Shown here: positions 16,369 to 19,300 of the stretch, one piece after another
How positions within the stretch are numbered: position 1 is the stretch's first letter
Layout: every line of letters starts with the position of its first letter
Assembly: GCF_048403405.1 (NCBI RefSeq)
Contig: NZ_CP183129.1
Strand: one strand, 5' to 3'
Length of the DNA stretch: 64,000 nucleotides
Source: Escherichia coli
Lineage (GTDB): Bacteria; Pseudomonadota; Gammaproteobacteria; Enterobacterales; Enterobacteriaceae
Program-made: the position numbers

Positions 16369-19300
16369 TAATTCCAGGGATTTATAAATGAAACAAACAC
16401 AACGTCACAACGGTATTATCGAACTGGTTAAACAGCAGGGTTATGTCAGTACCGAGGAACTGGTGGAGCACTTCTCCGTCAGCCCGCAGACTATTCGTCG
16501 CGACCTCAACGAGCTGGCAGAGCAAAACCTGATCCTGCGGCATCATGGCGGCGCGGCGCTGCCTTCCAGTTCGGTTAACACGCCGTGGCACGATCGTAAA
16601 GCCACCCAGACCGAAGAAAAAGAGCGCATCGCCCGCAAAGTGGCGGAGCAAATCCCCAACGGCTCGACGCTGTTTATCGATATCGGCACCACCCCGGAAG
16701 CGGTGGCGCACGCGCTGCTTAATCACAGCAATTTGCGCATTGTCACCAACAATCTCAACGTCGCTAACACGTTGATGGTAAAAGAAGATTTTCGCATTAT
16801 TCTCGCCGGTGGCGAATTACGTAGCCGCGATGGTGGGATCATAGGCGAAGCGACGCTCGATTTTATCTCCCAGTTCCGCCTTGATTTCGGCATTCTGGGG
16901 ATTAGTGGCATCGATAGCGACGGCTCGCTGCTGGAGTTCGATTACCACGAAGTTCGCACCAAACGCGCCATTATTGAGAACTCGCGCCACGTTATGCTGG
17001 TTGTCGATCACTCGAAATTTGGCCGTAACGCGATGGTCAATATGGGCAGTATCAGCATGGTAGATGCCGTCTACACCGACGCCCCGCCGCCAGTAAGCGT
17101 CATGCAGGTGCTGACGGACCATCATATTCAACTGGAGCTGTGCTGATCCTGCACGGCTTCCCACGTCAGACCAAAACGCGCCAGGTATTTGCGTAGCCGA
17201 TCTGCGTCGTTGACGCTGGCTTTGCCCTGGCGCGAAACATCAAAAAGCTGGCGACCGGCAGCAGAAAGCGATTTTGCCTGGCGGCAGATAGCGATAACGT
17301 GTTCCAGTTGCAGCCGATCAAAGAGGTCGATGTTTTCTGCCTCAGCGCCCAGCAGTTGCGTAAGCGCGGAGGGACGGCTCTCCTGCCAGTTATAGCGCAG
17401 ACGATTTATCTCATCTTCTACGGTTTCCAGAGTAATGCGCCCGCTATCGGCAAAGGTTGCCATCCGCGTGACGCTGGCAGAAAGTTCGCGAAAGTTACCG
17501 CGCCATGTTGCCTGGGGAGATGTCGCAAAAGCCAGCCAGGCGCGCCGTGCTTCGGTGTTAAAACGCACGCTGTCGCCGGTGAGTGAGGCGTGGCGCTCCA
17601 CTTCATAATCCAGGTTAGGTTCAATATCTTCCTGGCGCTGGCGCAGTCCCGGCAGGGTGAAGGTCCAGAGATTGATCCGCGCGTACAGATCTTCGCGAAA
17701 TTTGCCTTCAGCAACCAGCTGGCGCAAATCGCGCACCGTTCCGGCGATCAGCTGAAAATCACTGCTCACCTGGCGATCGCTGCCAAATGGGTAAAAGGTT
17801 TTCTCTTCAATGGCTTTCAGCAACATCGCCTGTTCGTCTGCGCCCAGTTCGCCAATCTCATCAAGAAACAACATGCCACCGTTGGCGCTGCGTAATAATC
17901 CTTCACGAGATTCCCGCGCCCCGGTAAACGCGCCTTTCACATGACCAAACAGCGTCGACATGGCGGTATCGCCGCGCAGGGTGGCGCAGTTCACTTCTAC
18001 AAATGCGCCGCTAAACTGATGCCGCGCCTGTTTCAATTCAAAGATGCGTCGTGCCAGAAATGACTTGCCCGCCCCGGTCGGGCCGTTGAGCAGGATCGGT
18101 GCGCGGGATTTAATCGCCACTTTTTCGATCTGCTCAATCATGCGGTTGAAGTGGGGGTTACGCGTGGCAATGCCGGATTTGAGGAAATCGAGGGTTTGCT
18201 GGCGTTCCTCGGCAAAGCGGCTGGCGATGGCGTTATAACGGCTTAAATCGAGATCGATAATCGTCACTTCACCTGCGCCGCGCGGTTGTTCTTTTTTGCG
18301 CGGTGGTGAAGATTGTATCAACCGGGCGGGTAGATAACGCGCTTCTGCCAGCAGAAACCAGCAAATCTGCGCGACGTGGGTACCGGTGGTGATGTGAATT
18401 AAATAGTCTTCTTTTTCTGGCTGGAACGCGTAACCACGGGCGAAATCATGCAGGCAGGCGTAAACCTCTTCGAAATCCCACGGGTTATGCAGTTCTATCT
18501 CAACGCCCACCACTTCTGTTTCTGGCGAAACGCTGGCGATATCGCGTTTAAGCGTTTCGAATAGCGAGCGCGAGCGGGCGTCGTGCAATAATTCCAGCCG
18601 ATCGATAACTAACGATTCTTGCTGGCATAGACAGAGTGTCGGACGCCATTTTGACCAGCGCTGACTGCCGCGCCCGGCATAATCCAGCACGGTACCGACA
18701 AAGCCAAAAGCCACTGTTTTACGCATCTTAGATATCCTTATAAAAGACGATATTTCATTATCGGTAAATCGGCTTTGCGGGAAATCTCCGTTTACGGACG
18801 TAAAGATTTAATCTTTTTAGAAACAATAAATTAATCTGCTTATTTAATTTTCTGGCACGACGGTTGCAATTATCAGGACATACCAACGAAAAGAGAAAAA
18901 CAAAATGAATTACGAATTACTGACCACTGAAAATGCCCCGGTAAAAATGTGGACCAAAGGCGTGCCGGTAGAAGCCGATGCGCGTCAGCAACTTATTAAT
19001 ACGGCGAAGATGCCGTTTATTTTCAAACATATTGCGGTAATGCCTGATGTACACCTGGGTAAAGGTTCCACCATTGGTAGCGTGATCCCGACCAAAGGGG
19101 CGATTATTCCGGCGGCGGTGGGCGTGGATATCGGTTGTGGAATGAACGCGCTGCGCACCGCGTTAACGGCGGCTGACCTGCCTGAAAACCTGGCAGAACT
19201 GCGTCAGGCGATTGAAACTGCCGTGCCGCACGGGCGTACTACCGGACGTTGTAAACGTGATAAAGGCGCATGGGAAAATCCGCCTGTTAACGTCGATGCG

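What the first reader, a model, noticed from the sequence alone, without database searches (positions are those of the whole stretch)
17128..17146. Convergent 19-bp overlap of the glpR and rtcR coding 3' ends
glpR (+) ends at 17146 and rtcR (-) ends at 17128, so the two reading frames overlap tail-to-tail with no room for an intergenic terminator. Convergent transcription through each other's 3' ends could couple expression of the glycerol repressor and the RNA-repair activator by transcriptional interference or antisense RNA.
Basis: seen in the sequence. Interest (0 to 1): 0.15.

Follow-up and report, generated by a model that had tools for sequence, protein, structure and literature searches.

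The report
Ordinary glpR–rtcR tail-to-tail gene overlap
The glycerol repressor gene glpR and the RNA-repair activator gene rtcR of E. coli really do share their last 19 bases on opposite strands. This is an already annotated, evolutionarily unstable by-product of which stop codon glpR uses, and nothing indicates it is a regulatory device.

Summary
glpR (+, 16388-17146) and rtcR (-, 17128-18726) overlap tail-to-tail by 19 bp. The same overlap is annotated in E. coli K-12 MG1655, and the junction is present in 5422 of 5426 complete E. coli genomes.

- **Origin.** Across Enterobacteriaceae the two genes always abut, but the overlap is 4, 19, 35 or 38 bp.
  - The GlpR end (QLELC*) never changes.
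  - The RtcR tail after its last conserved residue (W522) varies in sequence and length.
  - 19 versus 4 bp comes down to one transition: a glpR TGA stop makes RtcR read CAG and run five codons further, while TAA gives a shared TTAA.
  - The 35 and 38 bp forms follow a 7-nt deletion.
- **How common.** Published counts give 58-75 convergent overlaps in E. coli.
- **Transcription.** Published K-12 data show glpR transcripts do enter rtcR antisense. A 3' end lies about 97 nt past the stop, and a bicyclomycin-sensitive Rho termination region lies about 334 nt past it.
- **What is missing.** No rtcR 3' end is mapped. The pair is not in the published E. coli excludon list. The 10-bp hairpin over the glpR stop is not conserved.

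Regulatory coupling is untested and unlikely. Interest is low.

The parts
16388..17146 (+). glpR coding sequence (DeoR-family repressor of the glycerol-3-phosphate regulon), last gene of glpEGR; stop codon TGA at 17144-17146
   Evidence: ORF list. NCBIfam NF008154 over 1-252/252; Pfam HTH_DeoR and DeoRC. RefSeq annotation.
17128..18726 (-). rtcR coding sequence (sigma-54-dependent activator of rtcBA); stop codon TGA on the - strand at 17130..17128
   Evidence: ORF list. NCBIfam NF038308 over residues 1-527; Pfam RtcR and Sigma54_activat. RefSeq annotation.
17128..17146 (.). The 19-bp tail-to-tail overlap, TCAACTGGAGCTGTGCTGA. It holds GlpR codons QLELC* and RtcR codons QHSSS* (the overlap begins at the last base of the preceding Asp codon), with third codon positions facing each other (phase 123:213).
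   Evidence: Sequence. Invariant in six E. coli sampled across the identity range. Variants seen elsewhere (CAA/CAG, CTG/CTT) are synonymous in both frames.
17134..17160 (+). Hairpin in glpR-sense RNA: 10-bp stem GGAGCUGUGC/GCACGGCUUC including 2 G-U pairs, with loop UGAUCCU holding the glpR stop. No U tract follows. Judged incidental.
   Evidence: dG -15.6 kcal/mol, z -3.98, 0 of 200 shuffles as stable. The 3' arm varies within E. coli without compensation and is absent in K. oxytoca and the Salmonella-type loci. No mapped 3' end lies next to it.
17147..17244 (+). Inferred glpR 3' UTR, about 98 nt, lying antisense to the last ~33 rtcR codons before the overlap
   Evidence: The K-12 primary glpR 3' terminus at 3559751(-) (PMC10687069) was placed by matching its 52-nt upstream sequence to window 17193-17244 with 3 mismatches. 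This is inferred by homology and was not measured in this strain.
17177..17234 (+). Predicted structure in glpR-sense RNA closed by the 9-bp stem CGCGCCAGG/CCUGGCGCG, ending about 9 nt before the mapped 3' end. It could block 3'-to-5' exonuclease trimming.
   Evidence: Fold of 17147-17290: -56.4 kcal/mol, z -2.06. It is not supported across genera: consensus energy -13.8 kcal/mol, covariation term +0.02.
17400..17560 (+). Approximate position (centre about 17480) of the Rho termination region for glpR-sense transcription, inside rtcR antisense
   Evidence: MG1655 3559514(-): reads upstream/downstream 154/29 untreated and 153/256 with bicyclomycin, Rho score 8.9 (PMC7815308 Supplementary file 2). 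Converted by offset from the glpR stop (334 nt). The C/G ratio upstream is only modestly raised (1.3-1.4 at +1..60 and +241..320).
16681..16702 (.). Equivalent of a low-abundance RNase III-cut sense/antisense duplex reported inside K-12 glpR. It is the only hint that some RNA is made antisense to glpR, 426-447 nt past the rtcR stop.
   Evidence: PMC7373196 Table S3: 93 and 125 reads, about 1.1 and 1.5 RPM, just above the authors' 1 RPM cut-off. Located in the window with 1 mismatch. The source of the antisense strand is unknown.

Best explanation
The 19-bp overlap is a neutral by-product of stop-codon position in two genes that have abutted tail-to-tail since before the enterobacterial genera sampled here diverged.

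The GlpR C-terminus (QLELC*) is under protein constraint. RtcR is constrained only up to about W522. Its short tail simply reads on, antisense to glpR, until it meets a stop.
- When glpR ends in TAA or TAG, the RtcR frame also hits TAA, giving a 4-bp TTAA or CTAA overlap.
- In Escherichia and K. oxytoca glpR ends in TGA. The RtcR frame then reads CAG and continues five codons (QHSSS) to a TGA formed by the GlpR Ile-Gln codons (ATT|CAA), giving 19 bp.
- A 7-nt deletion in other lineages shifts the frame and gives 35 or 38 bp.

Because there is no spacer, each transcript must end inside the other gene. For glpR this is shown in K-12. After its stop codon the RNA is untranslated, Rho terminates it a few hundred nt into rtcR antisense, and the stable 3' end lies about 97 nt past the stop. 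That the 3' end reflects exonuclease trimming back to a folded region is inferred. For rtcR the same route is inferred but not shown.

Both genes are weakly expressed regulators, so RNA polymerase collisions and RNA duplexes should be rare. No dedicated coupling is needed to explain anything seen.
For: - **Overlap length varies; the GlpR tail does not.** 19 bp in four Escherichia species and K. oxytoca, 35 bp in Intestinirhabdus, 4 bp in Superficieibacter, and 38 bp and 4 bp in two Salmonella-type loci.
- **The junction alignment shows the changes directly.** GAT CAG versus AAT TAA, and the 7-nt deletion.
- **RtcR tails are free to vary.** Among 79 full-length RtcR homologues, conservation ends at '...RLRKYLARFGL.W', followed by tails of variable sequence and length.
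- **The phase is permissive.** Third codon positions face each other, so the variants seen in the overlap are synonymous in both genes.
- **Such overlaps are ordinary.** 4-bp CTAA/TTAA/CTAG/TTAG is the modal form, and a stop-codon-mutation model fits the observed E. coli phase frequencies (PMC2174442). E. coli has 75 convergent overlaps in another count (PMC4161906).
- **Transcript ends in K-12.** A glpR 3' terminus with a 98-nt 3' UTR, a bicyclomycin-sensitive region 334 nt past the stop, and no intrinsic terminator near the junction.
- **No RNA family or conserved fold.** No Rfam match and no conserved structure.
Against: - The abutment itself, with no spacer at all, is kept in every enterobacterial locus examined. 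That could reflect selection rather than inheritance.
- A stable hairpin sits exactly on the glpR stop in E. coli and E. albertii (z -3.98).
- All transcript data come from MG1655, whose glpR is a frameshifted pseudogene. Premature translation stop could change where Rho acts, so a glpR+ strain like this one might differ.
- Nobody has measured whether expression of either gene responds to the other.
Confidence: 0.82

Rival explanations
1. Excludon-type coupling. Convergent transcripts of glpR and rtcR overlap at their 3' ends. Expression of one lowers the other through polymerase collisions or RNase III cleavage of the RNA duplex, linking glycerol metabolism control to RNA repair.
For: - glpR-sense RNA does cover the last ~116 nt of rtcR, and up to ~350 nt before Rho acts.
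- With Rho inhibited, antisense coverage deeper into rtcR rises from 29 to 256 reads.
- A low-level RNase III duplex exists inside glpR.
- Convergent excludons are common in E. coli (165), and such pairs show higher synteny than other neighbours (PMC12288877). The rtcR-glpR abutment is also syntenic across genera.
Against: - The pair is not among the 165 listed excludons. It may have been missed because of low expression or the glpR pseudogene status in MG1655.
- No duplex labelled rtcR appears in the p19 tables, and one of those files was cut when stored.
- p19-captured dsRNA density at convergent 3' overlaps is about 38-fold lower than at divergent 5' overlaps.
- Overlap length and phase drift freely.
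- The overlap region is more than 1.2 kb from the rtcR promoter and start codon.
- glpR coverage is low: CDS about 0.3 against about 4.5 for glpD in the same table.
Confidence: 0.09
2. The hairpin at 17134-17160 is the core of a collision-type bidirectional terminator of the kind described by SEnd-seq. It would pause polymerases from both directions so that head-on collisions end both transcripts at the overlap.
For: - The hairpin sits exactly at the overlap (dG -15.6 kcal/mol, z -3.98).
- The published model requires a stem-loop in the overlapping region of convergent pairs and no U tract (bioRxiv 10.1101/2022.10.23.513370).
Against: - No 3' end is mapped beside the hairpin. There are none at MG1655 3559500-3560099 in the Term-seq tables, and the TRS terminus is 97 nt further on.
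- Read-through here is Rho-dependent, whereas those terminators are described as Rho-independent.
- On the rtcR-sense strand the two G-U pairs become A-C mismatches, which weakens the stem.
- The 3' arm changes without compensation within E. coli and is absent in other genera.
- In that model the collided polymerases are released by a trailing polymerase, so it needs frequent transcription of both genes. Neither regulator is expected to supply that (inference).
Confidence: 0.06
3. Annotation artefact: one of the two gene ends is mis-called and the proteins do not really overlap.
For: The last five RtcR residues lie outside the region matched to the family profile (residues 1-527).
Against: - 3' ends of ORFs are set by stop codons and need no start-site judgement.
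- GlpR matches its profile to the last residue.
- The RtcR frame is open to 17128 in every E. coli checked.
- RefSeq and the K-12 reference annotation agree.
Confidence: 0.01

Closest known systems
Convergent (tail-to-tail) overlapping gene pairs in prokaryotes, arising by stop-codon mutation (Lillo & Krakauer 2007, PMC2174442; Huvet & Stumpf 2014, PMC4161906)
   Same: Two real genes on opposite strands share their 3' ends. The overlap is short. Relatives carry the modal 4-bp TTAA or CTAA form. The longer forms arise when a stop is lost in one frame through a point change or an indel, as the model proposes.
   Different: Nothing of substance differs. The phase (123:213, wobble facing wobble) is the least common of the three for overlaps longer than 4 bp (18% overall, 22% in E. 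coli) but is not rare. It is the phase inherited from a 4-bp overlap.
Rho-dependent termination of mRNAs in 3' regions, with 3' ends later set by exonuclease trimming (Dar & Sorek 2018, PMC6061677; Adams et al. 2021, PMC7815308)
   Same: There is a bicyclomycin-sensitive drop in glpR-sense coverage a few hundred nt past the stop codon. No hairpin-plus-U-tract terminator is present. The stable 3' end lies upstream of the Rho region, just after a predicted folded segment.
   Different: The whole 3' UTR and the termination zone lie inside another gene's coding sequence. C over G enrichment is weak. The data come from a strain in which glpR is frameshifted.
Excludons (convergent neighbours with overlapping transcription and reciprocal expression; ExcludonFinder, PMC12288877)
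   Same: The genes are convergent neighbours with no spacer. At least one transcript overlaps the other gene. Synteny is conserved.
   Different: The pair is not in the published MG1655 list. Reciprocal expression has not been shown. No dsRNA is reported in the 3' overlap. Expression is low.
Collision-driven bidirectional terminators at convergent gene pairs such as ynaJ-uspE (Ju et al. 2019; Wang et al., bioRxiv 10.1101/2022.10.23.513370)
   Same: The pair is convergent, and a hairpin without a U tract is encoded at the junction.
   Different: Termination here depends on Rho. No 3' ends are mapped at the hairpin. The hairpin is not conserved. Both genes are weakly expressed.

Membership tests
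Convergent overlapping gene pair | Both partners are real protein-coding genes on opposite strands | tested here: met
   GlpR matches NF008154 at 552.8 bits (cutoff 331). RtcR matches NF038308 at 852.2 bits (cutoff 650). Pfam domains agree. Orthologues occur across Enterobacteriaceae.
Convergent overlapping gene pair | The coding sequences, stop codons included, share nucleotides at their 3' ends | tested here: met
   17128-17146, 19 bp. The same overlap is in RefSeq annotations.
Overlap created by stop-codon mutation or indel | Relatives differ in overlap length through identifiable changes at a stop codon or in frame, while the proteins upstream stay the same | tested here: met
   A glpR TGA stop makes the RtcR frame read CAG and gives 19 bp. 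TAA or TAG puts TAA in the RtcR frame and gives 4 bp. A 7-nt deletion gives 35 or 38 bp. RtcR tails vary after W522.
Intrinsic (Rho-independent) terminator at the junction | G+C-rich hairpin followed directly by a U tract | tested here: not met
   The scan finds none near 17128-17146. The hairpin at 17134-17160 is followed by CCACGUCAGACC.
Rho-dependent terminator for glpR | Read-through rises when Rho is inhibited by bicyclomycin | tested here: met
   Taken from published K-12 data, not measured in this strain: MG1655 3559514(-), Rho score 8.9, p = 2.7e-27 (PMC7815308 Supplementary file 2).
Rho-dependent terminator for glpR | C-rich, G-poor untranslated RNA upstream (rut-like) | tested here: inconclusive
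   The RNA is untranslated after 17146. The C/G ratio reaches only 1.3-1.4 in two 60-nt stretches.
Excludon | Transcripts of both convergent genes overlap | tested here: inconclusive
   glpR RNA over rtcR is shown in K-12. No rtcR 3' end was found in the held tables. The only hint is one duplex at about 1 RPM inside glpR.
Excludon | Listed in the RNA-seq-derived E. coli MG1655 excludome (present in at least 50% of 58 transcriptomes) | tested here: not met
   rtcR, glpR, glpG, rtcB and malT do not occur anywhere in the paper's main text, which holds Table 1.
Excludon | Reciprocal (mutually exclusive) expression of the two genes | not testable with these tools
   This needs expression data or cis-perturbation experiments.
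Collision-type bidirectional terminator | Stem-loop encoded in the region where the two transcripts overlap | tested here: met
   10-bp stem at 17134-17160, z -3.98. It is not conserved.
Collision-type bidirectional terminator | Independent of Rho | tested here: not met
   glpR-sense read-through is bicyclomycin-sensitive. The family is described as Rho-independent.
Collision-type bidirectional terminator | Sharp, coincident 3' ends of both transcripts flanking the hairpin | tested here: not met
   No Term-seq 3' end lies at MG1655 3559500-3560099. The TRS 3' end is 97 nt past the glpR stop.

The most novel reading that the evidence does not exclude
The spacer-free rtcR-glpR abutment, kept in all enterobacterial loci examined, may be maintained because glpEGR read-through acts as an antisense brake on rtcR. 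Read-through covers about 100-330 nt of rtcR and is limited by Rho. Under this reading, Rho activity or glycerol-dependent changes in glpEGR transcription would tune how much RtcR is available to switch on RNA repair. The E. coli-specific hairpin over the glpR stop would then be a recent refinement.
Probability: 0.05. Interest if true: 0.4.

Novelty: already known. Interest (0 to 1): 0.08.

Why it matters
It matters little. The overlap is in the K-12 reference annotation and is one of several dozen such pairs in E. coli. The useful results are these.
- The 4, 19, 35 and 38 bp series gives a clean worked example of how one stop-codon transition or a small deletion resizes a convergent overlap.
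- In E. coli and relatives with the 19-bp form, the RtcR tail QHSSS is the antisense reading of GlpR's conserved last codons (QLELC*).

If the pair were shown to be a working excludon, it would link carbon-source regulation to RNA repair. That would be of moderate interest to specialists.

Tried and rejected
- **Intrinsic terminators.** The consensus scan of 16300-18900 gave 4 sites against 3.9 expected, none at the junction. Rejected.
- **Known RNA families.** An Rfam scan of 15000-19500 at E <= 1 gave only one chance-level lncRNA hit. Rejected.
- **Exact-seed inverted repeats.** The search around the junction found none. The hairpin appears only when G-U pairs are allowed.
- **Conserved 3' UTR structure.** RNAalifold on 11 enterobacterial sequences gave -13.8 kcal/mol with a covariation term of +0.02. 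The E. coli 9-bp closing stem is not complementary in the Salmonella-type loci. Rejected as a conserved element.
- **Do rtc deletion variants spare the glpR 3' UTR?** One variant keeps only 74 nt past the glpR stop, less than the 98-nt UTR. This gives no support for the idea.
- **Other literature sources.**
  - Supplements for Dar & Sorek 2018, the iRAP paper, Conway 2014, the R-loop paper and ExcludonFinder are not held.
  - Ju et al. 2019 and Peters et al. 2012 are not held at all.
  - No paper in the library discusses rtcR and glpR together in this sense.
- **rut-site composition.** The C/G skew is only weak. Inconclusive.
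Full report
**1. The observation**

The window is E. coli chromosome. Positions 16300-18800 are 100% identical to strain TUM14771. The gene order is glpD / glpE-glpG-glpR / rtcR / rtcB-rtcA / malT.

- glpR runs on the + strand from 16388 to 17146 and ends ...CAA CTG GAG CTG TGC TGA.
- rtcR runs on the - strand from 18726 down to 17128 and ends ...GAT CAG CAC AGC TCC AGT TGA.
- Both are full-length family members. GlpR matches NCBIfam NF008154 over 1-252 of 252. RtcR matches NF038308 over residues 1-527, with Pfam RtcR and Sigma54_activat domains.

The overlap is not new. K-12 MG1655 is annotated with rtcR at 3558268-3559866 and glpR at 3559848-3560605, the same 19 bp. An 81-nt query over the junction matches 5422 of 5426 complete E. 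coli genomes. Four genomes chosen across the identity range (92.6-97.5%) all carry the 19-bp overlap in their annotation, and the 19 bases are invariant in the six E. coli sequences aligned.

**2. Is it unusual?**

No. In this window there are eight convergent CDS pairs. Seven have gaps of 31-219 nt and this one overlaps.

Published counts give 58 convergent overlaps in E. coli (PMC2174442) or 75 of 663 overlapping pairs (PMC4161906). The modal convergent overlap is 4 bp (CTAA, TTAA, CTAG or TTAG), and longer ones are explained by loss of a stop codon.

**3. What comparative data show**

A scan of species-representative genomes with RtcR returned 29 loci. In all seven enterobacterial loci that carry a full-length rtcR, glpR lies convergent and abutting. 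One further E. coli locus (L031) keeps only a remnant of the rtcR 3' end next to glpR. In Pseudomonas, Neisseriales-type, Verrucomicrobia and Desulfobacterota loci no glpR match is nearby. Overlap lengths differ:

| Overlap | Where found | RtcR tail |
|---|---|---|
| 19 bp | Four Escherichia species, K. oxytoca | ...QHSSS* |
| 35 bp | Intestinirhabdus alba | ...ISTAPAEYGDR* |
| 38 bp | Salmonella-type locus encoding a 536-aa RtcR | ...ISTIPAVYGGRR* |
| 4 bp (CTAA) | Superficieibacter electus | ...KEMAN* |
| 4 bp (TTAA) | Salmonella-type locus encoding a 527-aa RtcR | ...LQN* |

The GlpR tail QLELC* is identical in the seven loci where it was translated. The junction alignment shows the events directly.

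- Where glpR stops with TAA, the RtcR frame reads AAT TAA and stops.
- Where glpR stops with TGA, the RtcR frame reads GAT CAG and continues through CAC AGC TCC AGT to a TGA. That TGA is the reverse complement of the junction of the GlpR Ile-Gln codons (ATT|CAA).
- The 35 and 38 bp forms carry a 7-nt deletion just before the junction, which shifts the RtcR frame.

An alignment of the C-termini of 79 full-length RtcR homologues shows strong conservation up to '...NDADRLRKYLARFGL.W', followed by tails of variable sequence and length. The RtcR residues encoded in the overlap are therefore an unconstrained tail. In the 19-bp form, 'QHSSS' is simply what the antisense of GlpR's conserved last codons spells.

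Third codon positions of the two frames face each other (sequence). This is why the differences seen in the overlap (CAA/CAG, CTG/CTT) are silent in both genes.

**4. Where the transcripts end**

No terminator-like hairpin with a U tract lies near the junction. Public K-12 data already cover part of the proposed check.

[quoted passage not shown] Its upstream 52 nt map to window 17193-17244 with three mismatches.
- Adams et al. (PMC7815308, Supplementary file 2) list a Rho termination region at 3559514(-), classed antisense to rtcR. Read counts in the 800-nt windows upstream/downstream are 154/29 untreated and 153/256 with bicyclomycin, giving Rho score 8.9 and p = 2.7e-27. That is 334 nt past the glpR stop, about window 17480.
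- Their curated Term-seq tables hold no 3' end between 3559500 and 3560099.

So glpR-sense transcription crosses the overlap, runs antisense into rtcR, and is stopped by Rho. The stable end lies about 97 nt past the stop, just after a predicted folded segment (17177-17234, z -2.06). This fits the usual picture of Rho termination followed by exonuclease trimming; the trimming step is inferred.

Two caveats apply. MG1655 glpR is a frameshifted pseudogene, which may alter Rho loading. The C over G enrichment downstream of the stop is only modest.

For rtcR I found no mapped 3' end. The only hint of RNA antisense to glpR is one RNase III-cut duplex at about 1 RPM in the p19 capture data (PMC7373196 Table S3). 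It corresponds to window 16681-16702, 426-447 nt past the rtcR stop. Its origin is unknown.

**5. The hairpin on the overlap**

In glpR-sense RNA, 17134-17160 can form a 10-bp stem with the stop codon in the loop (-15.6 kcal/mol, z -3.98). This resembles the stem-loops proposed for collision-type bidirectional terminators. The other defining features fail.

- Read-through here depends on Rho.
- No 3' ends flank the hairpin.
- On the rtcR-sense strand two G-U pairs become A-C mismatches.
- The 3' arm, which is RtcR codons for E-A-V-Q, changes to E-T-M-Q or E-A-L-Q within E. coli with no compensating change. It is unrelated in K. oxytoca and the Salmonella-type loci.

I regard the hairpin as incidental. 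A consensus fold of the glpR-downstream 125 nt in 11 enterobacterial sequences is weak (-13.8 kcal/mol) with no covariation. Rfam finds nothing.

**6. Does the overlap couple the two regulators?**

Nothing tested here says so.

- The pair is absent from the 165 convergent excludons reported for MG1655. Low expression or the glpR pseudogene status could have hidden it.
- In the p19 study, dsRNA density at convergent 3' overlaps was about 38-fold lower than at divergent 5' overlaps.
- glpR coverage is low, about 0.3 against about 4.5 for glpD in the same table.
- Rho limits the antisense to the last fifth of rtcR, more than 1.2 kb from its promoter and start codon. Collisions and duplexes should therefore be infrequent (inference).
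- The free drift of overlap length and phase argues that the overlap itself is not selected.

What remains unexplained by drift alone is that none of the enterobacterial loci examined has a spacer. Inheritance from one ancestral junction is sufficient to explain this, but it leaves a small opening for the excludon reading.

**7. Verdict**

Its functional claim is not supported.
- The feature is an already annotated, ordinary convergent overlap created by stop-codon choice.
- Novelty: already known. Interest: low.

Noticed in passing
window 16853-26656 (three different deletion spans; loci L031, L032, L033): About 10% of complete E. coli genomes (577 of 5425) lack most of the queried glpG-end/glpR/rtcR stretch (window 16300-18800). 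Three independent deletions were mapped. One removes window 17221-21011 and leaves 93 nt of the rtcR 3' end beside an intact glpR. One removes 17512-20734 and leaves a 399-nt rtcR pseudogene. One removes 16853-26656, from the glpR 3' half to malP. The RNA-repair operon is therefore dispensable and has been lost repeatedly.
   Followed up: partly
window ~5774-12968: A seven-gene chaperone-usher fimbrial cluster lies between glpD and glgP in this strain. K-12 has only yzgL there, and strains S14 and NCTC11023 carry a PstS-like gene plus hypothetical genes. This looks like a variable insertion hot spot.
   Followed up: no
window ~42635-43307: A RelE/ParE-family toxin gene and a NadS-family gene are annotated between pckA and envZ. 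NadS ends 31 nt from the convergent envZ, the tightest non-overlapping convergent pair in the window.
   Followed up: no
window 16300-18800: This glpR-rtcR haplotype is rare. Only 7 of 5425 E. coli genomes are at least 99% identical over it, and most are 95-96%. Against K-12, identity is 94.9% for rtcR, 95.0% for rtcA, 96.4% for glpR and 98.8% for glpG, although RtcR protein is 98% and GlpR 100% identical. The divergence is therefore mainly synonymous.
   Followed up: partly
L002 5849-6606 (K-12 MG1655 3559848-3560605), equivalent to window 16388-17146: MG1655 glpR is annotated as a pseudogene. tblastn splits it at codon 50/52, consistent with a 1-nt deletion, whereas the window's glpR is intact. 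All public 3'-end data used here therefore come from a strain with an untranslated glpR 3' part.
   Followed up: partly
window 16681-16702 and 16622-16634: A low-abundance RNase III-cut sense/antisense duplex is reported inside K-12 glpR, at about 1.1 and 1.5 RPM. On the - strand a weak terminator-like site (5-bp stem followed by TTTTTCTT) lies about 50 nt further along in the rtcR direction. Together they could mark rtcR read-through ending about 500 nt into glpR, but the terminator-like site is at the frequency expected by chance.
   Followed up: partly
L035 1258-2811 versus L034: Two Salmonella-type rtc loci differ in content and in junction. One has a Ro60/TROVE gene between rtcR and rtcB and a 4-bp rtcR-glpR overlap. 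The other has rtcB directly after rtcR and a 38-bp overlap.
   Followed up: no
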